A stretch of DNA of 63,470 bases, taken from NCBI GenBank assembly GCA_038896555.1, contig JAWACZ010000005.1, forward strand, positions 1 to 63,470, written 5' to 3'. Below the pieces are notes generated by a model. That model ran no database searches. It had not been told where the DNA came from and saw only the letters and a list, made by a program, of their open reading frames with translations. Source of the DNA: Candidatus Caldarchaeum sp. (GTDB taxonomy: Archaea > Thermoproteota > Nitrososphaeria_A > Caldarchaeales > Caldarchaeaceae). Positions 4,501 to 20,162 of the stretch are shown in pieces. A program made the position numbers and the translations under genes. Numbering within the stretch: position 1 is the first letter of the stretch; the number at the start of each line of letters is the position of its first letter.

Positions 4501-4602
4501 GGGGGTGTAGCCGAGCAAGGCCAAGGCGTCGGGCTCCAGATCACGTCCAGCTGGTCATGAGGCGCTACCCGAAGACCGTGGGTTCAAGTCCCACCACCCC
4601 CA
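4501..4602 (+). tRNA. tRNA-Trp (CCA) with a canonical-position intron of about 27 nt
   Basis: Acceptor GGGGGTG pairs with CACCCCC, with discriminator A. The T arm is GTGGG-TTCAAGT-CCCAC. The anticodon stem TCGGG pairs with CCCGA only after removing about 4540-4566. The loop is CU-CCA-G(intron)A, so the intron follows position 37. Confidence 0.8.
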
Positions 4603-14852: not shown

Positions 14853-15530
14853 TCACAACAGAAGGGAAACCCCGTAAACGGTTGCGAAAGATGTCAGGGG
14901 CACGGTGATGTTGTCGTCAACTTTCCCGAACTCAAACTTTTCCACTACAGATGCAACAGCCCCTGAAACAGCTCCCGCAACATCAAGCATCGCAAAGCCC
15001 GTCGGCACACAGAATAAAGCCATGGCCAAGTTTCCCCACCATGACTTCGTTCTCCTACGATATAGTGCGTTCCTCACCAGACCTGTTACGCCGTCTCCAA
15101 CGCTCATGAAGAGAATCGGAAGGATGGCCAATTTCAGGTTTCCGAGAACAAACCCCAGCGCCATGATAAGCCCCCACATGAATATGAAATGAACCTCGAA
15201 CATGTTCTCCTCGACTTGGTACCAGTAATAGAGTTTACCACGTTTGTGGGGTATGTAGTTGCCCACAGCTAGGACCGAGACCATGACAGCTATAAGCAGG
15301 AGGTTGTTGAGCAGATATGGTATTAAAACCGCCACAAGACCTCCAGCCAGTATATGTATGAGTTTTCTGTTGTAGTAAACAGCTACATGGTGTTCCACAC
15401 CTCTAGCCACCATTTTTTCGTAAATTTTCCTAGCCAGATAAAGGCTCACAAACAAAACCCATGCAAACAACCCAATCGTTGCCACCACCTCGTTGACCGT
15501 AAGCACAGGCTCCAACATTAATGAGGCCAT
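14853..15530 (-). CDS. Polytopic membrane protein of the CTP-dependent polyprenol/dolichol kinase (cytidylyltransferase) family
   Basis: 225 aa with multiple TM helices. The motif GDGVTGLVRN...RRRTKSWWGNLAMAL and a C-terminal DDNITVPL resemble the dolichol/phytol kinase family. Confidence 0.5.
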   Translation of the reverse strand: MASLMLEPVLTVNEVVATIGLFAWVLFVSLYLARKIYEKMVARGVEHHVAVYYNRKLIHILAGGLVAVLIPYLLNNLLLIAVMVSVLAVGNYIPHKRGKLYYWYQVEENMFEVHFIFMWGLIMALGFVLGNLKLAILPILFMSVGDGVTGLVRNALYRRRTKSWWGNLAMALFCVPTGFAMLDVAGAVSGAVASVVEKFEFGKVDDNITVPLTSFATVYGVSLLL

Positions 15531-15597
15531 CTATTTCTCAGATTTAAGAATTTTAAACCACATAAACAAATATTCGACGAATCTCCGTCTAAAAATC

Positions 15598-15891
15598 ATG
15601 GAGATAAGGAGGGCGCAAAAATATCTCGACGAGGTTTACGGTGACAGGGATAGAATGCGAGGCATAGACAAAACCCTTGCATGGCTTTTTTCCGAGGTTG
15701 GAGAGTTGTCGGAGGCGGTTGTGCAGAAACTCGGCCGTGACAGGATGCGGGAGGAAGCGGCCGACGTTCTAGCTTGGCTACTCAGCCTCTGCAACGTGGC
15801 AGCCATAGATTTGGAGGAGGCTTTTCTACGTAAATATGGGGCTGGATGTCCACGCTGCGGCTCAAAGCCATGCGTTTGCCCGTTGGCTTAA
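15598..15891 (+). CDS. MazG-like nucleotide pyrophosphohydrolase with a C-terminal Cys cluster
   Basis: The likely start is the ATG at 15598. The sequence MEIRRAQKYLDEVYG...LAWLFSEVGELSEAV...EEAADVLAWLLSLCN carries the EExxE/D-type MazG motifs. The C-terminus is CPRCGSKPCVC. The track ORF starts earlier, at 15493. Confidence 0.6.
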   Translation: MEIRRAQKYLDEVYGDRDRMRGIDKTLAWLFSEVGELSEAVVQKLGRDRMREEAADVLAWLLSLCNVAAIDLEEAFLRKYGAGCPRCGSKPCVCPLA

Positions 15892-16176: not shown

Positions 16177-16250
16177 GGGCCGGTGGTCTAGCCTGGTAGG
16201 ACGCCGCTCTCACACAGCGGAGGTCGAGAGTTCGAATCTCTCCCGGCCCA
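16177..16250 (+). tRNA. tRNA-Val (CAC)
   Basis: Acceptor GGGCCGG pairs with CCGGCCC. Anticodon arm is CCGCT-CUCACAC-AGCGG. T arm is GAGAG-TTCGAAT-CTCTC. Length 74 nt. Confidence 0.9.
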
Positions 16251-16272
16251 CGATTTGCAGGTAAATGTTTAA

Positions 16273-16377
16273 CGGGCCCGGTGGGACTTGAACCCACGAC
16301 CTACGGCTTAGGAGGCCGCCGAACCAGGAAATACACTTATGGTGTATTTCTCTCTATCCATGCTGAGCCACGGGCCC
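16273..16377 (-). tRNA. tRNA-Arg (CCU) with a non-canonical intron of about 30 nt in the D-arm
   Basis: The reverse complement reads GGGCCCG-TG-GCTC-AGCATGGATA-GAG[AGAAATACACCATAAGTGTATTTCCTGGTT]C-G-GCGGC-CTCCTAA-GCCGT-AGGTC-GTGGG-TTCAAGT-CCCAC-CGGGCCC-G. A 75-nt cloverleaf forms only after removing about 16322-16351. The intron contains a perfect 9-bp hairpin. Confidence 0.8.
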
Positions 16378-16433
16378 ACAGATTCATGACAGCCTGACTA
16401 CATAAACTTAAAGGCACCCGCCGCCCTATAGGA

Positions 16434-16960
16434 CTCTGTTAACTTAAGGCCTTTGGCCTAGGGATGCGGTTGTTTTCTCATGTTGTTGAGGATGAGGACC
16501 CCTTTTCCAGCAGTCCTCTACGGGCTTTACCTCGTAGCCCTAGGCTTGAGCTTTAGATGCGTTTCTAGGGCTGTTAAGCCTTTCGTCGGCAGGAGTCATG
16601 TGGCTAAGTGGGTTCAGAGGCTCCCAGGGTTCAGGAGGGTGTTCAGGGCCAGTGCAGGGTATCCCTATCCCTTGCGGATGAGGCTGCTGCCATGGAAGGC
16701 TTCTTGGCATGGGTCTGGGTTGCCTACGAGCCTTACAGCAAAAGAACCCTAGCATTCTGACTTTCATGGAATAGGAACGGCGTACAGATGCTCAAGTACA
16801 GGACGGAAAGCTTCGACGATTACTTCCCATGCAGGAAGAAAGCACGCATTCTAGAGCATGTCTGGAGATGGCTAAACCCCATACACATCCCCACCCAGCC
16901 AGAGACGCCACATCTGACGAACAGCATAAAACAGGTGATGAAGATGGCTTAAGTTAACAG
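16434..16960 (+). mobile_element. MITE-like deletion derivative of an IS element (near-perfect terminal inverted repeats, only scraps of transposase)
   Basis: The left end CTCTGTTAACTTAAG (16434-16448) is the exact inverted repeat of 16946-16960. Inside are an HTH-like N-terminal scrap (ORF 16480..16752, LYGLYLVALGLSFRCVSRAVKPFVGRSHVAKWVQRL) and a C-terminal scrap (..YRTESFDDYFPCRKK..). Confidence 0.55.
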
Positions 16961-16966
16961 AGCCGA

Positions 16967-16986
16967 TGTTAAGTATTTAAATACTT
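16967..16986. promoter_or_regulatory. Perfect 20-bp palindrome over a TATA-like core, upstream of the wHTH gene (candidate operator/promoter)
   Basis: TTAAGTATTTAAATACTTAA is self-complementary and centred on TTTAAA. The centre lies about 41 nt upstream of the ATG at 17018. A GGAG Shine-Dalgarno-like element lies 8-10 nt before the ATG. Confidence 0.55.
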
Positions 16987-17017
16987 AAAGCCCCTTATTA
17001 TCAAAGGAGTAACACTT

Positions 17018-17242
17018 ATGACTTCGCAAGCCATTCACACAAAGGACCAATCTAAAAAAGTCAAGACACTGTTATCAAAGACTCCCGAACTTAGCGTCAA
17101 AGAGCTAGCAAGGGCTTCTCAGGTAAACAGACAGTTTATGGCTGGATTTTTAACGGCTCTGGAAGAAAGAGGCGATGTATATTCAAGAAAAGTTGGGCCG
17201 GCTAGGATTTATTTTAATAGCGAGGTGAAAAGTGGTGAGTGA
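17018..17242 (+). CDS. Small winged-helix DNA-binding protein (candidate controller of the downstream methyltransferase/nuclease genes)
   Basis: 74 aa. LSVKELARASQVNRQFMAGFLTALEERGDVYSRKVGPARIYF fits an HTH-plus-wing pattern. Its 3' end overlaps the methyltransferase start by 11 nt. Confidence 0.5.
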   Translation: MTSQAIHTKDQSKKVKTLLSKTPELSVKELARASQVNRQFMAGFLTALEERGDVYSRKVGPARIYFNSEVKSGE

Positions 17243-18515
17243 GAAGCCCAGTTTCAGCGAACTTGTAAAAGCTAAGGATACAGAACCTTTAATCCGTGGC
17301 TTCTTTTTTACATGTACAGATAAGAGTGAGGAAGAGTGTTTCAAGAGGCGACTGATGGGCACAACCAAAGTCTATGGTCCAGTAGTAATAAGAATCAGAA
17401 AAGGTGACCTTCTATTTCTAATTAATTTAAGTTCTAATGTATTGTATGGGATTTTTAAAGCAGTTTCGGATGGAGGTTTTAATTTACAGCCAGAAGCATG
17501 GAAAGGGAGATACCCTTACCAAGTAAGATTTGAAATTCTTGGAGAAATTATGAAGATAAATGATGCAAAAAAAATTCAACAAAGATTTGGGATAAAAAGG
17601 AATACTCCTCTTTACGGAAAAAAGTTACTTGATTTTATTGATCTTTTTCTTGCCAAGCCTACATTATTAAATGCTTCTATGGGACTGATGAAAAACGATA
17701 CAATTCGCCTAATCATGGAGGAAAAGAAAAAAATTCAGGAGAGAATTAATGAAGTTGATGTTGAAGATGAGATTCCCCTTGTTGAAGCAACAACATTTTG
17801 GGATTTTCCAAGACAAAGTTATGGTTTAACTCCTAAAGGGGACAATAAATATCCAGGCGTTACTCCTGCTTTAATAATCTATAACATGGTATGGAGATAC
17901 ACCGACCCAGGCGATTTGGTTGTTGACCCGATGGCGGGCAGCGGGACAACTCTCGATGTATGCAGGGAAGAGAAGCGGAGATGTATCTGCTACGATATAG
18001 CGCCCACAAGACCTGACGTGATTCAAAATGACTCCAGAAAAATACCGTTAGAAGATAACTCTGTAGACATGATTTTTATAGACTCGCCTTATGGTGATAA
18101 TGTTAGGTATAATGACCATCCAGACTGTATAGGTAAAATTTCCAGCGAGACTGAAGAATTTTATAACGAGCTTGAGAAAGTGATGAAAGAATGTCATAGG
18201 ATATTGAAAGAAGGAAAGGTATTGGGATGGCTAATTGGTGATCAGTGGGTTAAGAATAAATTCACGCCTGTAGGGTTAAAAGTTTACGAGCGCTTATGTA
18301 AATATTTTGAGCCTGTAGACATTATTTGTGTTGCTCGAAGAGGGCAGATCTCTCATAGAGGTCCTTGGTACAATCGAGCAAGGAGACTTAATTTCTATCT
18401 GCGAGGTTTTAAATATCTACTTATAATGAAAAAGCCCTTTCTTGAAAAACCAAGAATCGAAGAGCCTCGAAAAATTAATTGGACCTACTATGAGAGGAAG
18501 AAATTAAAAGCCTAA
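17232..18515 (+). CDS. SAM-dependent N6-adenine/N4-cytosine-type DNA methyltransferase with an N-terminal DCD/EVE-like (PUA-fold) domain
   Basis: Residues about 22-102 read GFFFTCTDKSEEECFKRRLMG...IRKGDLLFLINLSSNVLYGIFKAVSDGGFNLQPEAWKGRYPYQVRF, which follows the DCD-domain consensus. The methyltransferase part has WDFPRQ...YPGVTP..., motif I VVDPMAGSGTT (17922-17951) and motif IV FIDSPYG (near 18078). Confidence 0.8.
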   Translation: MVSEKPSFSELVKAKDTEPLIRGFFFTCTDKSEEECFKRRLMGTTKVYGPVVIRIRKGDLLFLINLSSNVLYGIFKAVSDGGFNLQPEAWKGRYPYQVRFEILGEIMKINDAKKIQQRFGIKRNTPLYGKKLLDFIDLFLAKPTLLNASMGLMKNDTIRLIMEEKKKIQERINEVDVEDEIPLVEATTFWDFPRQSYGLTPKGDNKYPGVTPALIIYNMVWRYTDPGDLVVDPMAGSGTTLDVCREEKRRCICYDIAPTRPDVIQNDSRKIPLEDNSVDMIFIDSPYGDNVRYNDHPDCIGKISSETEEFYNELEKVMKECHRILKEGKVLGWLIGDQWVKNKFTPVGLKVYERLCKYFEPVDIICVARRGQISHRGPWYNRARRLNFYLRGFKYLLIMKKPFLEKPRIEEPRKINWTYYERKKLKA

Positions 18516-18532
18516 GATGGAGACATGGTGAT

Positions 18533-19249
18533 ATGAATATCGAAGATTTAATAAAATTATATGAAGAAAAGAGAAAGATGTATGGCGTTAATGTTTACAA
18601 ACATATATCCGAGCTTTTCAAAGAGGCAAAAAAATTGCATTACGAAGAATGGTCAAAGCACCGAACGGCGAGAGGCGATCACGAACAGTCATGGAGGGCT
18701 TGGAAAGGGAAAAATCTTGAAAAGTTAATCTTACATATAATTAAGAGGGAAGTTGAAAGTTTAGGATTAAAAATAGTTGATGGGAATAAGCTTGAAAGAA
18801 CAAAAAGTGAGAATCTGTCTCGTGAATTGAGTACAGTGAAAAGGAATGTATTAGTAGATTTTGGCGAATTTGGTTCGCACCTTCCAGATGTTGACCTTAT
18901 AATTTATGATCCTAAAACTTGTAAGGTGATTGCAACAATATCATCCAAGGTTACTTTACGAGAAAGAATTGCTCAAACTGGGTACTGGAAAATTAAGCTC
19001 TCAAGAGACGAAGTTACGAAACATATAAAGGTGTTTTTCGTAACCCCAGATGAGGATGGGACGTTAACCACTAAAAAACCAGCGAAAAAAGGAAGGGCTA
19101 TTGTAGAGGTAGATACGGATGGCTGCTATGTTATGAGCAAGACTGATGTAGAGGAAAGCAACAAGGTAAAGATGTTCGATAAATTCATAAGCGATTTAAA
19201 AGAATTGATAAAAAATCGCTCTGAAAAAAAGAATTATCCTAATTTTTAA
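18533..19249 (+). CDS. Putative type II restriction endonuclease (PD-(D/E)xK fold, S-x-K variant)
   Basis: 238 aa, 17 nt downstream of the methyltransferase, with GGTGA before the ATG. The candidate catalytic core is HLPDVDLIIYD...ATISSKVTLRER (PD...D...SxK...E). The family was not identified. Confidence 0.5.
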   Translation: MNIEDLIKLYEEKRKMYGVNVYKHISELFKEAKKLHYEEWSKHRTARGDHEQSWRAWKGKNLEKLILHIIKREVESLGLKIVDGNKLERTKSENLSRELSTVKRNVLVDFGEFGSHLPDVDLIIYDPKTCKVIATISSKVTLRERIAQTGYWKIKLSRDEVTKHIKVFFVTPDEDGTLTTKKPAKKGRAIVEVDTDGCYVMSKTDVEESNKVKMFDKFISDLKELIKNRSEKKNYPNF

Positions 19250-19276
19250 TAATTAAACCTTTTGATCTCAGTTTCG

Positions 19277-20162
19277 GGACTGTAACTTAAGGTCTATGGC
19301 CTGGGTCTTCCCGTTCGTTGGGGGTGGATAAAGTTGGGGTTGGCCTAGGCCGTCTTATAGGTTTCTTCGGCGATAGGAATGTCTTTCTCTGTCTCAGGAC
19401 AACTCCGTGGGTTAGGGCTGTCGGCGTTAGGCTATACGTCAAAGGGGCTCAGCCTCAGGAGGGTAGCGGGGATGTTATGCGAGCTAGGATTCCAGGTAAG
19501 CCATGAGCCTGTCAGGAGATGGCTCCATGGGGCTGGTGAGGCCTTCTCATCTAGCCGTAGACGAGACAGCAATCCGTAACCTCGTCAGGAGGGCCTATGT
19601 ATGGGCTGGACAGCCGAGCGCATAAGGTTCCTTGAGGTAGTTAGGGGGCGGGTCCATAGGCTGGGGAGGGTCTTCAACCCCATGCGTAAGCCCGGGGAGG
19701 CTTTGAGACGGTTGGGAAGAGGCTGGGCGAGGGGTCTGCGTATGGTCTGCTGTCGACGTCGACGCAGGCGAGATAACAGCCGTATACGCTTCTAGAGATA
19801 GGTCTATGCTTAATGCATCGACTTTCCTTAGGATGGTCCTAAGGGCATGCGAAGGTAGTAGTGGACAGGGGTCCATGGTATCCATGGGCTCTAAACGTCT
19901 AGCCATAGAATACTTCCAGGAAACGTTTGGGGAGGGGAGCGGGATAGAGAGGTGGTTCAGAGAGCTGAAGGAGAGGACAAGGAGGCTCTACAACAACACA
20001 AACTCCAACAAGGTAAAGAGCATAGAAGAGATAGCATCAGCCATAGCCCTAACACAACACACCACCCAACACCCAAACGGAACGAAGTGCAATACTTGGT
20101 TGACAGTACCTTGGCCGCTCTGTCCGTTCTGGGCTACGGGCCCAGTTTAACGTCTGCAGAGC
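19277..20162 (+). mobile_element. IS element remnant with a frameshifted DDE transposase (IS6-like signature)
   Basis: The left terminus GGACTGTAACTTAAGGTCTATGGCCT is related to the left end of the element at 16434. Both right ends finish in CAGAGCC. Transposase pieces lie in different frames: HTH (LGYTSKGLSLRRVAGMLCELGFQVSHEPVRRWL), AVDETAIR, VVVDRGPWYPWAL and IERWFRELKERTRRLYNN (D, D and E with K at E+7). Confidence 0.6.

What the first reader, a model, noticed from the sequence alone, without database searches (positions are those of the whole stretch)
17232..19249. Methyltransferase fused to a DCD/EVE-like modified-base reader domain, paired with a PD-(D/E)xK nuclease
The first about 100 aa of the methyltransferase read GFFFTC..EECF.R.LMG....V..I.KGDLLFL.N.....LYGIFKA.SDGG.N..P.AW.G.YP.QVRF. 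This follows the consensus of the DCD (development and cell death) domain, a PUA-fold relative of the EVE and YTH domains that bind modified bases.

After a linker comes a methyltransferase core with motif I (DPMAGSGTT) about 50 aa before motif IV (DSPYG, an unusual D-S-P-Y variant). A 238-aa protein follows with a PD..D...SxK..E signature.

Prokaryotic EVE/DCD domains have been linked by comparative genomics to restriction-type systems. A reader domain fused directly to the modifying enzyme is a distinctive architecture. It could act as a read-write or maintenance methylase, or couple the modification state to restriction.

The target could be DNA or RNA, and the specificity is unknown.
Basis: partly seen in the sequence, partly recalled or inferred. 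Interest (0 to 1): 0.75.

Follow-up and report, generated by a model that had tools for sequence, protein, structure and literature searches.

The report
Restriction-modification cassette with DCD-fused methylase
This is a horizontally acquired restriction-modification gene cassette whose DNA methylase carries an extra "DCD" domain of the modified-base-reader type; the arrangement is real and widespread, but it was already described from comparative genomics in 2020 and what the extra domain does remains untested.

Summary
ORF 17232-18515 (427 aa) has an N-terminal DCD domain (Pfam PF10539, 78 bits, cutoff 27.8). Its model has an EVE/YTH-like PUA fold. The rest is a circularly permuted N6_N4 DNA methyltransferase core, with motif I 52 aa before an invariant D-S-P-Y-G motif IV.

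ORF 18533-19249 (238 aa) is a BsaWI-family (CCGG-family) PD-(D/E)xK Type II endonuclease. It keeps the catalytic D119 and K139 and a continuous R143-E144-R145 motif, which reads CCGG in this family.

The cassette, with a small upstream wHTH gene, is a 37% GC island in a 51% GC archaeal genome, next to two tRNA genes.

The fusion family is large. At least 120 clusters share 67-86% identity across many archaeal and bacterial phyla. The nuclease lies directly downstream in 18 of 26 loci.

DCD is an accessory module. Sister methylases lack it or carry ParB instead, and one DCD-less sister still pairs with a BsaWI-type nuclease. Orphan methylases keep DCD, and DCD is under purifying selection.

Bell, Wolf and Koonin (2020) already described DCD-methyltransferase fusions followed by PD-(D/E)xK nucleases. 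This locus is therefore a new member of a known kind. Whether DCD reads the enzyme's own methyl mark is plausible but unproven.

The parts
16969..16988 (.). Perfect 20-bp palindrome TTAAGTATTTAAATACTTAA over a TATA-like box, 30 nt upstream of the wHTH start. Candidate operator and promoter of the cassette.
   Evidence: palindrome scan; sequence. Not conserved in other loci, so it is tentative.
17018..17242 (+). 74-aa winged-helix (MarR/TrmB-like) protein. Its stop codon overlaps the methylase start. Candidate controller or regulator of the cassette.
   Evidence: MarR E=8.7e-5 and TrmB E=1.2e-3, both below the gathering scores. A 48%-identical homolog sits in the same position in L005 only. A copy in the same 90% cluster lies next to the methylase in a Ca. 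Caldarchaeum MAG.
17232..18515 (+). DCD-methyltransferase fusion protein, 427 aa, GTG start. An SD-like GAGGTGA lies just upstream.
17298..17561 (+). DCD domain (residues 23-110), PUA/EVE/YTH-like beta-barrel. Invariant residues include G23, F24, F26, E35, R54, R56, F62, L63, G73, P95, Y96 and V98. Position 90 is always W, F or H.
   Evidence: Pfam 78 bits. AF2 pLDDT 90-95 over the core. Foldseek hits PH1033, MJECL36, YTH and VcaM4I. Profile against PDB. Column composition. Median dN/dS about 0.12.
17562..17771 (+). Variable, mostly helical linker (residues 111-180).
   Evidence: Secondary structure. Mean pairwise identity 0.56 and relaxed dN/dS. This is where the natural frame split occurs in L031-L033.
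17772..18446 (+). Circularly permuted N6/N4 DNA methyltransferase core (residues 181-405). It contains a conserved pre-motif-I loop (185-212), motif I LVVDPMAGSGTT (17916-17951), motif IV IFIDSPYGDN (18072-18101) and a conserved basic loop (368-392).
   Evidence: Pfam and PDB alignments show the C-terminal part of the beta-class profile matching before the N-terminal part. Invariant columns. Mean pairwise identity 0.84. Coordinates.
18533..19249 (+). BsaWI-family (CCGG-family) Type II PD-(D/E)xK restriction endonuclease, 238 aa. E63, D119 and K139 align with BsaWI E92, D145 and K165. R143-E144-R145 (18959-18967) aligns with BsaWI R169-D170-R171.
   Evidence: Pfam PF18643 E=2.9e-36. The family profile hits only BsaWI 4zsf, E=0.0028. 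Residue roles come from PMC4652773. Invariant columns.
16177..16251 (+). tRNA-Val(CAC), left neighbourhood of the island.
16272..16378 (-). Intron-containing tRNA-Glu(TTC), left neighbourhood of the island.
   Evidence: aragorn -i.
16434..16962 (.). 529-bp non-coding element bounded by perfect 15-nt terminal inverted repeats (CTCTGTTAACTTAAG), lying between the tRNAs and the cassette. MITE-like. A link to cassette mobility is possible but not shown.
   Evidence: expected by chance 0.16 matches, 2 found. No Pfam hit for its ORFs.

Best explanation
This is a mobile Type II restriction-modification cassette in an archaeal genome, probably Caldarchaeum-like.

The nuclease. The 238-aa enzyme is a BsaWI/CCGG-family PD-(D/E)xK endonuclease. 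It most likely cuts unmodified double-stranded DNA at a palindromic site with a CCGG core. The flanking bases are unknown, because the residue BsaWI uses for the outer W pair is not conserved.

The methylase. The 427-aa protein is the cognate DNA amino-methyltransferase, making m6A or m4C. The D-(S/P)-P-Y motif IV and the best family hits lean slightly towards m6A on a flanking A. Its catalytic core is a circularly permuted beta-class N6/N4 methylase, and it carries its own conserved DNA-contact loops.

The DCD domain. The N-terminal DCD domain is an accessory PUA/EVE/YTH-type module, not the target-recognition domain. My preferred mechanism is inferred, not shown. DCD binds a flipped methylated base in DNA, most simply the enzyme's own product on the parental strand of a hemimethylated site. 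That would tether the methylase to resident DNA, favour maintenance methylation after replication, and limit accidental protection of incoming unmethylated DNA.

The regulator. The upstream wHTH protein and the palindromic TATA region probably control expression in this locus.

Sub-probabilities:
- Functional Type II R-M pair acting on DNA: about 0.9.
- CCGG-core specificity: about 0.7.
- DCD binds a modified or flipped base in DNA: about 0.6.
- That base is the enzyme's own product: about 0.35.
For: Shown here:
- Domain assignments are strong for all three parts.
- The REase family profile hits only BsaWI. Catalytic K139 and D119 and a continuous R-E-R motif are in register with BsaWI K165, D145 and R169-D170-R171. 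That motif reads CCGG in this family.
- The methylase and nuclease genes are 17 nt apart on the same strand.
- A BsaWI-like gene lies directly downstream of the DCD-methylase in 18 of 26 distinct loci from many phyla.
- The cassette is 0.37 GC against 0.51 in the host. It stays at 0.32-0.39 GC in hosts of up to 0.535 GC.
- DCD has a PUA/EVE/YTH fold.

Evidence that DCD is accessory rather than the target-recognition domain:
- The nearest core relatives (42-64% identity) lack DCD, or carry ParB_N+HTH_ParB at the same N-terminal position.
- A DCD-less methylase with 62% core identity pairs with a BsaWI-family nuclease in L034.
- DCD-less relatives keep the same conserved core loops.
- In one lineage DCD is a separate ORF in front of an intact methylase and nuclease.

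Evidence that DCD serves the methylase rather than the nuclease:
- Orphan methylases in Nitrososphaera, Archaeoglobales and Marinimicrobia retain DCD. This includes copies whose GC has drifted to the host value.

Evidence that DCD is functional:
- Median dN/dS is about 0.12, with many invariant aromatic and basic residues.

From established knowledge: EVE and YTH domains bind flipped 5mC/5hmC or m6A (VcaM4I, PMC7897488; YTH-McrB, as summarised in PMC7641849).
Against: - No experiment or methylome links this family to any site or base.
- CCGG and NCCGGN are not specifically depleted in the host DNA. CCGG O/E is 0.78, similar to other GC-rich palindromes. This gives no support, although recent acquisition would explain it.
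- The second catalytic acidic residue of BsaWI (D175) has no acidic counterpart here (T149).
- BsaWI's outer-base contact K85 aligns with A56.
- The link to BsaWI itself is remote (E=0.0028).
- Nothing here shows which ligand DCD binds. In the sister clade the same position holds ParB, a plain DNA-binding module. DCD could therefore be only a DNA clamp.
- A methylase that strongly prefers hemimethylated DNA would make establishment in a new host harder. Yet this cassette clearly spreads across phyla.
- The split-gene case is a single lineage (three contigs, 100% identical DNA) and could be a recent inactivating frameshift.
Confidence: 0.55

Rival explanations
1. Supplementary-methylation model (Bell, Wolf and Koonin 2020). 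DCD recognises a different, pre-existing DNA modification. It directs the methylase to add a further methyl group to already modified DNA, which the neighbouring nuclease would otherwise restrict.
For: This is the published interpretation of the architecture. DCD elsewhere is fused to McrB-like and PD-(D/E)xK modules of modification-dependent systems. DCD evolves faster than the core, with 0.66 against 0.84 mean pairwise identity, as expected for a ligand-tracking module.
Against: The nuclease is an orthodox BsaWI/CCGG-family Type IIP enzyme, a kind that cuts unmodified sites. No second modification is therefore required. The cassette works in hosts from more than 15 phyla, which are unlikely to share one extra modification. 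DCD-less sisters pair with the same nuclease family.
Confidence: 0.12
2. DCD here is a modification-blind accessory. It would be a general DNA (or single-strand) clamp, processivity or oligomerisation module, equivalent to the ParB domain of sister methylases, with no reader function.
For: [quoted passage not shown] The core is viable alone. No direct evidence for a modified-base ligand exists. The third YTH cage position appears aliphatic here, from a by-eye comparison with recalled YTH sequences and the column counts.
Against: Every characterised close structural relative (EVE, YTH) is a modified-base reader. Aromatic positions 24, 26, 42, 90, 94 and 96 are conserved. Purifying selection on the domain is strong.
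Confidence: 0.25
3. The protein is an RNA (tRNA or rRNA) methyltransferase with an N-terminal RNA-binding PUA-like domain, analogous to THUMP-Trm11 or Trm14. The neighbouring nuclease would be unrelated.
For: The best Foldseek hit of the full-length model is A. fulgidus Trm11. There are weak sub-threshold hits to UPF0020, TIGR01177 and Trm14 around motif IV. YTH and many PUA domains bind RNA.
Against: The Trm11 hit has a TM of only about 0.3. It reflects the linear I-to-IV order shared by all ordinary Rossmann methylases. N6_N4_Mtase scores 87 bits, and the match includes the beta-class-specific segment before motif I. The RNA families are all below their cutoffs. The gene travels with a Type II nuclease as a low-GC cassette across phyla rather than in conserved housekeeping synteny.
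Confidence: 0.03
4. The cassette is a recently landed selfish element that is silent or decaying in this host, so no current function should be assigned.
For: Related loci show frameshifted or lost nucleases (L012, L019, L025, L028) and orphan methylases. The GC is foreign. The host shows no CCGG avoidance.
Against: In the window all three ORFs are full length, all invariant family residues are intact, and the spacing is operon-like.
Confidence: 0.1

Closest known systems
DCD-methyltransferase + PD-(D/E)xK nuclease gene pairs of archaea and thermophilic bacteria (Bell, Wolf and Koonin, BMC Biol 2020, PMC7641849)
   Same: The architecture is the same: an N-terminal DCD fused to a Rossmann-fold methylase, with a PD-(D/E)xK nuclease gene immediately downstream. 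The taxonomic setting, archaea and thermophilic or anaerobic bacteria, is also the same.
   Different: Nothing structural differs. This work adds the following:
- The nuclease is BsaWI/CCGG-family and carries the R-E-R motif.
- The methylase core is a permuted beta-class enzyme.
- DCD-less and ParB-bearing sister methylases exist, as does one split DCD variant.
- An orthodox Type II reading fits better than the 'supplementary methylation' proposal.
BsaWI (W^CCGGW) and the CCGG-family Type II endonucleases (NgoMIV, Cfr10I, Bse634I, SgrAI, AgeI, Ecl18kI; PMC4652773)
   Same: The Pfam RE_BsaWI domain is shared. The PD...K catalytic core is in register with BsaWI D145 and K165. A continuous R-(D/E)-R motif lies four residues after the catalytic lysine, and a glutamate is equivalent to BsaWI E92.
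   Different: Similarity to BsaWI itself is only profile-level (E=0.0028). BsaWI D175 and K85 have no equivalents, so the second acidic residue and the outer-base specificity may differ. The N-terminal helical region is unrelated in sequence.
Beta-class N6/N4 DNA methyltransferases (M.RsrI, M.PvuII, CcrM, TTHA0409; Pfam PF01555)
   Same: The AdoMet motif I, the conserved pre-motif-I segment and a (D/S)-P-P-Y-type motif IV are shared. The sequence hits are significant.
   Different: The motif order is permuted, with X-I-II-III before IV-VIII. The first proline of motif IV is replaced (D-S-P-Y). There is an N-terminal DCD domain in place of an internal target-recognition domain.
PUA-superfamily readers in modification-dependent nucleases (EVE-HNH VcaM4I, YTH-McrB of Thermococcus gammatolerans) and the eukaryotic reader-writer pair UHRF1 (SRA)-DNMT1
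   Same: The same fold class, which binds a flipped modified base, is joined to an enzyme acting on DNA. The UHRF1-DNMT1 logic of reading a hemimethylated site to write the other strand is the analogy for the preferred mechanism.
   Different: No ligand is known. UHRF1's SRA domain is a different PUA-like branch and acts in trans.
ParB-methyltransferase fusions of phages and plasmids
   Same: The methylase core is homologous and permuted (31-49% identity), with an accessory nucleic-acid-binding module at the same N-terminal position.
   Different: The accessory module is ParB_N/HTH rather than DCD. The gene neighbourhoods of these fusions were not examined here. From general knowledge, not tested here, they are usually orphan methylases rather than R-M partners.

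Membership tests
DCD domain (Pfam PF10539), PUA-like superfamily | Profile HMM match above the curated gathering score | tested here: met
   78.1 bits for the full protein and 81.4 bits for the domain alone, against a cutoff of 27.8.
DCD domain (Pfam PF10539), PUA-like superfamily | PUA/EVE/YTH-type beta-barrel fold | tested here: met
   AF2 mean pLDDT 83. Foldseek top hits are PH1033, MJECL36, YTH and VcaM4I EVE, with probability about 1.0 and TM 0.5-0.6. The profile hits MJECL36 and PH1033 by sequence.
DCD domain (Pfam PF10539), PUA-like superfamily | Binding of a modified base | not testable with these tools
   Only conservation of aromatic and basic residues is available.
DCD-methyltransferase / PD-(D/E)xK pairs of Bell et al. 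2020 | DCD fused N-terminally to a Rossmann-fold methyltransferase | tested here: met
   All 120 listed relatives carry PF10539 plus PF01555.
DCD-methyltransferase / PD-(D/E)xK pairs of Bell et al. 2020 | PD-(D/E)xK nuclease gene immediately downstream | tested here: met
   Present in 18 of 26 related loci.
Type II R-M system with a CCGG-family (BsaWI-like) endonuclease | RE_BsaWI domain and PD...K catalytic residues in register with BsaWI | tested here: met
   PF18643 E=2.9e-36. D119 and K139 align with BsaWI D145 and K165, and E63 with E92.
Type II R-M system with a CCGG-family (BsaWI-like) endonuclease | R-(D/E)-R CCGG-recognition motif | tested here: met
   R143-E144-R145 is invariant in 29 family members, including both sub-families. 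It aligns with BsaWI R169-D170-R171.
Type II R-M system with a CCGG-family (BsaWI-like) endonuclease | Second catalytic acidic residue (BsaWI D175, or E in NgoMIV K-X12-13-E) | tested here: not met
   The equivalent positions are T149 and Y151/W152. Another invariant acidic residue (D121, D173, D175 or E192) may substitute. This lowers certainty about the details of catalytic geometry, not about the fold.
Type II R-M system with a CCGG-family (BsaWI-like) endonuclease | Cleavage at a CCGG-containing site that is blocked by the cognate methylation | not testable with these tools
   The site-avoidance test was uninformative: CCGG O/E 0.78, and NCCGGN is not depleted.
Beta-class N6/N4 DNA methyltransferase (PF01555) | Profile match above cutoff, with AdoMet motif I and a (D/N/S)PP(Y/F) motif IV | tested here: met
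   87.4 bits against a cutoff of 26.7. Motif I is DPMAGSGTT. Motif IV is DSPY, invariant in the family and DPPY in more distant relatives.
Beta-class N6/N4 DNA methyltransferase (PF01555) | Beta-class motif order IV-VIII, then TRD, then X-I-III | tested here: not met
   Residues 156-260 match profile positions 116-215, whereas residues 273-341 match the N-terminal part of beta-class enzymes (NCBIfam PRK11524 positions 29-78; TTHA0409 residues 37-103). It is therefore a circular permutant of the beta class, not a canonical member.
RNA methyltransferases of the UPF0020/Trm11/Trm14 type | Profile match above the curated cutoff | tested here: not met
   UPF0020 scores 21.6 against 22.3. TIGR01177 scores 21.4 against 316. 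Trm14_Arch scores 15.2 against 280.
R-M controller (C) protein | Small HTH protein upstream of the R-M genes with a palindromic operator in its own promoter | tested here: inconclusive
   The wHTH hits are below the Pfam cutoffs. A 20-bp perfect palindrome lies over a TATA-like box. The wHTH is found in only 1 of 26 related loci (L005), plus a Ca. Caldarchaeum MAG copy in the same 90% protein cluster. Classical C proteins are Xre-type HTH, not wHTH (general knowledge).

The most novel reading that the evidence does not exclude
The DCD domain would be a reader of the methylase's own product (m6A or m4C in a CCGG-type site). The fusion would then be a prokaryotic single-chain 'read-write' maintenance methylase, preferring hemimethylated resident DNA over unmethylated invader DNA. 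This is functionally analogous to UHRF1-DNMT1. It would also reveal the long-unknown ligand class of the DCD domain of plants.
Probability: 0.3. Interest if true: 0.7.

Novelty: new member of a known kind. Interest (0 to 1): 0.35.

Why it matters
The locus is ordinary in the sense that it is a Type II R-M cassette whose unusual fusion was already catalogued in 2020. Public annotation already names the pair "DNA methyltransferase" and "BsaWI family type II restriction enzyme".

Its value is as an experimental handle.
- The biochemical ligand of the DCD domain has, as far as I could find, not been determined. That domain was first defined in plant development and cell-death proteins.
- This family offers a small, very conserved and abundant bacterial and archaeal version. 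It is attached to an enzyme whose product, and probable CCGG-core site, can be predicted and measured.
- Natural controls exist: DCD-less sisters with the same nuclease family, a split DCD variant, and orphan methylases that keep DCD.

The family also shows how far an R-M cassette can spread. Proteins 67-86% identical occur in Asgard, Bathyarchaeia, Thermoplasmata, Archaeoglobales, Nitrososphaerota, Thermodesulfobacteria, Chloroflexota and other lineages.

Tried and rejected
1. Site-avoidance test for the specificity. CCGG (O/E 0.78) and the four NCCGGN palindromes are not specifically depleted in the 61 kb of host DNA. GATC (0.42) and GCTAGC are the outliers. The test was uninformative.
2. 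Composite-transposon idea. A 23-nt, 87% copy of the left end of the upstream TIR element lies just after the nuclease gene. However, global alignment and BLAST show no real similarity of the bodies. Rejected.
3. tRNA-fragment att site. A 27-nt, 81% copy of the tRNA-Glu 5' end lies at 20118-20144. It is not significant by BLAST. Left as a weak lead.
4. Transposase remnants at 19.3-20.2 kb. The only hit is DDE_Tnp_ISAZ013 at E=0.042. Not supported.
5. Direct phmmer of the nuclease against the PDB found nothing relevant. A family profile was needed to reach BsaWI.
6. Full-length Foldseek gave only generic Rossmann methylases, with Trm11 on top at TM about 0.3. This is not discriminating, because the core is permuted relative to solved beta-class DNA methylases.
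7. Viral contigs hold no relatives. PADLOC and PHROGs have no model matching DCD.
8. Conserved operator search upstream of the methylase in 27 loci found none shared.
9. The 237-aa and 235-aa neighbours of the DCD-less methylases P0249 (L030) and P0244 (L035) are not BsaWI-like.
10. A literature search for methylomes with WCCGGW, TCCGGA or ACCGGT motifs linked to this family gave nothing usable.


Full report
**1. What is at the locus**

Three co-directional ORFs lie close together or overlap.
- A 74-aa protein at 17018-17242.
- A 427-aa protein at 17232-18515, with a GTG start that overlaps the previous stop.
- A 238-aa protein at 18533-19249, 17 nt after the previous stop.

The segment from 17.0 to 19.25 kb has 0.36-0.385 GC, against about 0.51 for the rest of the window.

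Several features lie immediately to the left.
- tRNA-Val (16177-16251).
- An intron-containing tRNA-Glu on the other strand (16272-16378).
- A 529-bp element with perfect 15-nt terminal inverted repeats (16434-16962).

Intron-containing tRNAs indicate an archaeon. A protein at least 90% identical to the methylase, with the same small upstream gene, is annotated from a Candidatus Caldarchaeum MAG.

**2.

Pfam gives the following for the 427-aa protein.
- DCD (PF10539): E=6.6e-22, 78 bits against a cutoff of 27.8, residues 23-110.
- N6_N4_Mtase (PF01555): E=1.8e-24.

For the 238-aa protein Pfam gives RE_BsaWI (PF18643) at E=2.9e-36. PADLOC calls the methylase MTase_II.

The quoted motifs are present: DPMAGSGTT at 232-240 and DSPYG at 284-288.

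An AlphaFold2 model of residues 1-130 is confident, with mean pLDDT 83 and 90-95 in the core. Its best PDB matches are the archaeal EVE proteins PH1033 and MJECL36. YTH domains and the EVE domain of the 5mC-dependent nuclease VcaM4I follow.

A sequence profile of the domain independently finds MJECL36 (E=0.017) and PH1033 (E=0.47). They share a (K/T)-(F/Y)-P-Y-(R/Q)-V-K strand with the DCD domain.

**3. The nuclease**

Direct sequence search of the PDB finds nothing. A profile of 29 family members hits one structure only, BsaWI (4zsf, E=0.0028).

In that alignment four features match BsaWI.
- K139 matches the catalytic K165.
- D119 (in P-D) matches D145.
- E63 matches E92.
- The invariant R143-E144-R145 matches R169-D170-R171.

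The last motif is the continuous R-(D/E)-R with which CCGG-family enzymes read the CCGG tetranucleotide (PMC4652773).

Two features are not conserved.
- BsaWI's second acidic residue D175 corresponds to T149 here.
- K85, which reads the outer W base pair, corresponds to A56 here.

I therefore predict a CCGG core but leave the flanking bases open. Two nuclease sub-families, about 60-91% and 32-39% identical to the window protein, both keep S-x-K-x3-R-E-R.

**4. The methylase core**

Residues 156-260 match the C-terminal part of the beta-class profile, which covers the pre-motif-I segment and motif I. Residues 273-341 match the N-terminal part, which covers motif IV.

The core is therefore a circular permutant of the beta class, with order X-I-II-III-IV-VIII.

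Motif IV (D284-S-P-Y-G-D-N) is invariant in the family. In more distant relatives it is the canonical D-P-P-Y.

By the classical rule, D-P-P-Y suggests N6-adenine. This rests on general knowledge and has known exceptions. The best NCBIfam hits are also adenine methylases. N4-cytosine methylases are equally good PDB hits, so the base remains open between m6A on a flanking A and m4C.

RNA-methyltransferase models are all below their cutoffs. The Trm11 top hit of the full-length model (TM about 0.3) reflects the ordinary linear motif order rather than a specific relationship.

**5. Distribution and synteny**

The full-length fusion has 2456 database relatives at E<=1e-5. The best 120 clusters are 67-86% identical over 94-100% of the length, and all carry PF10539 plus PF01555. 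The named sources are Jordarchaeaceae, Nitrososphaerota, Bathyarchaeia, Archaeoglobales, Thermoplasmata and Marinimicrobia.

The species-representative genome collection gives 25 loci. Their sources are:
- Aenigmatarchaeota
- Micrarchaeota
- Promethearchaeota
- Alkanophaga
- Methanosarcinales
- Thermodesulfobacterium
- Thermodesulfovibrionales
- WOR-3
- Chloroflexota and Dehalococcoidia
- Brevinematia
- Nitrososphaera
- several others

No relatives were found in viral contigs.

Across 26 distinct loci the picture is as follows.
- A BsaWI-like gene lies immediately downstream in 18 loci. It is visibly frameshifted or truncated in four of them.
- It is absent in five loci, which are orphan methylases.
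- In three loci the contig ends too early to tell.

The cassette stays at 0.32-0.39 GC in hosts of up to 0.535 GC. The more diverged Nitrososphaera orphans have drifted to the host GC. This is the pattern of a frequently transferred selfish R-M cassette.

**6. What the DCD domain is for**

I searched the 50%-clustered library with the core alone, then classified the hits with my own DCD, linker and core HMMs and with Pfam.

The DCD-bearing family collapses into three clusters. All other close relatives of the core fall into two kinds.
- Stand-alone enzymes of 238-282 aa (42-45% identity).
- Enzymes carrying ParB_N+HTH_ParB at the same N-terminal position (31-49% identity).

Three natural variants are informative.
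- **L034.** A DCD-less methylase with 62% core identity is paired, in R-then-M order, with a BsaWI-family nuclease 45% identical to the window enzyme.
- **L031-L033.** DCD is a separate 112-aa ORF overlapping the start of a DCD-less methylase (64% core identity), followed by an intact BsaWI-like gene. The three contigs are identical in DNA, so this is one lineage. The split is a 1-nt frame change in an A4G4 run within the linker.
- **Orphan methylases.** They keep DCD.

DCD-less relatives retain the conserved core loops TTxWDFPxQSYG...KGDNKYxGVTP and RRxNFYLRGFK. These are invariant in the family. They are modelled with low confidence, as expected for DNA-contact loops.

Constraint differs by region.

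| Region | Mean pairwise identity | Median dN/dS |
|---|---|---|
| DCD | 0.66 | about 0.12 |
| Linker | 0.56 | about 0.75 |
| Core | 0.84 | about 0.04 |

The dN/dS values are rough because synonymous sites are near saturation.

Together these results support four statements.
- DCD is not the sequence-recognition domain.
- DCD is not needed for basic protective methylation.
- DCD serves the methylase rather than the nuclease.
- DCD is nevertheless maintained by selection.

**7. Mechanism**

Shown: the locus is a Type II R-M gene pair with a CCGG-family nuclease and a DNA amino-methylase that carries a PUA-type accessory domain.

Inferred: DCD binds a flipped modified base in DNA. The basis is its fold relatives and its conserved aromatic residues (F24, F26, F/M42, W/F90, Y94, Y96).

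The simplest candidate ligand is the enzyme's own product on the parental strand of a hemimethylated site. That would bias the enzyme towards resident DNA and away from unmethylated invaders. I put this at about 0.35.

The main rivals are these.
- A modification-blind DNA clamp, analogous to ParB (about 0.25).
- The published idea that DCD reads another modification and the methylase adds a supplementary mark (about 0.12). This fits less well, because the nuclease is an orthodox type that cuts unmodified sites and the cassette works in very different hosts.

An RNA-methylase reading is very unlikely (about 0.03).

**8. The upstream wHTH**

It hits MarR and TrmB models below their cutoffs. It is found in the same position in only one other locus (L005, 48% identity), plus the Caldarchaeum near-identical copy.

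A perfect 20-bp palindrome over a TATA-like box lies 30 nt upstream of its start. A controller-protein role is plausible for this locus. It is not a general feature of the family.

**9. Comparison with what is known, and novelty**

Bell, Wolf and Koonin (2020) state three things about prokaryotic DCD.
- It is rare and occurs mostly in archaea and hyperthermophilic bacteria.
[quoted passage not shown] NCBI already names the partner 'BsaWI family type II restriction enzyme'. I found no later paper that tests the DCD-methylase experimentally.

The locus is therefore a new member of a known kind. This analysis adds the following.
- The CCGG-family assignment with the R-E-R motif.
- The permuted-core description.
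- The ParB, DCD and no-domain alternation.
- The DCD-less and split natural controls.
- The evidence against a role for DCD as recognition domain or nuclease regulator.

**10. Verdict**

The substrate is DNA. The novelty was overstated.

Interest is moderate to low (0.35). The system is ordinary as an R-M cassette. It is still a good, unexploited model for finding out what a DCD domain binds.

Noticed in passing
window 16434-16962: A 529-bp non-coding element bounded by perfect 15-nt terminal inverted repeats (CTCTGTTAACTTAAG), MITE-like and single copy in the window. It sits between the tRNA genes and the R-M cassette. A 23-nt, 87% copy of its left end lies at 19283-19305, just after the nuclease stop. 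The bodies show no BLAST-level similarity.
   Followed up: partly
window 16272-16378 (-), 4501-4602 (+), 20118-20144: Intron-containing tRNA-Glu(TTC) and tRNA-Trp(CCA) are found only when ARAGORN is run with intron detection. A 27-nt, 81% copy of the tRNA-Glu 5' end lies 3.8 kb away, on the far side of the island. It could be an old integration scar, but it is not significant by BLAST.
   Followed up: partly
window, whole (host DNA outside 16900-19300): GATC is strongly under-represented (90 observed against 216 expected, O/E 0.42). GCTAGC is also depleted (2 against 9.9). This hints at other restriction pressures on this genome, unrelated to the cassette.
   Followed up: no
window 16969-16988: A perfect 20-bp palindrome, TTAAGTATTTAAATACTTAA, is centred on a TATA-like box 30 nt upstream of the wHTH gene. 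It is a candidate operator and is not seen in related loci.
   Followed up: partly
window 19300-20160: The GC-normal stretch after the cassette holds only short ORF fragments. One has a very weak transposase hit (DDE_Tnp_ISAZ013, E=0.042). It may be a degraded mobile element.
   Followed up: partly
window 15493-15891 (+): A small MazG-type nucleotide pyrophosphohydrolase ORF (PF03819, E=1.3e-10) lies just left of the tRNA genes.
   Followed up: no
L031:1683-3509 (identical in L032, L033): A natural split of the fusion. DCD is a separate 112-aa ORF that overlaps a DCD-less methylase ORF by 31 nt, through a 1-nt frame change in an A4G4 run, and an intact BsaWI-like gene follows. The same DNA occurs in three assemblies from different samples.
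   Followed up: yes
L035:374-3611: Two methylase systems lie back to back. A DCD-less permuted methylase (245 aa) plus an unknown 235-aa ORF (weak HhH-GPD hit, E=0.097) is convergent with a complete DCD-methylase and RE_BsaWI pair.
   Followed up: partly
L001:4413-4985 and L008:1245-1808: In Archaeoglobales the orphan DCD-methylase is preceded by a conserved 187-190-aa ORF (81% identical between the two MAGs). It has no Pfam match. It may be an unrecognised partner protein.
   Followed up: partly
L006:3559-3927: In a Thermodesulfobacterium MAG a tyrosine-integrase fragment (PF00589, E=8.8e-11) lies immediately upstream of the cassette, consistent with carriage on an integrative element.
   Followed up: no
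window 17763-17861 and 18333-18407 (methylase residues 178-210 and 368-392): Two of the most invariant segments of the methylase are modelled with pLDDT below 50. They are probably DNA- or base-contact loops that order only on substrate binding.
   Followed up: no
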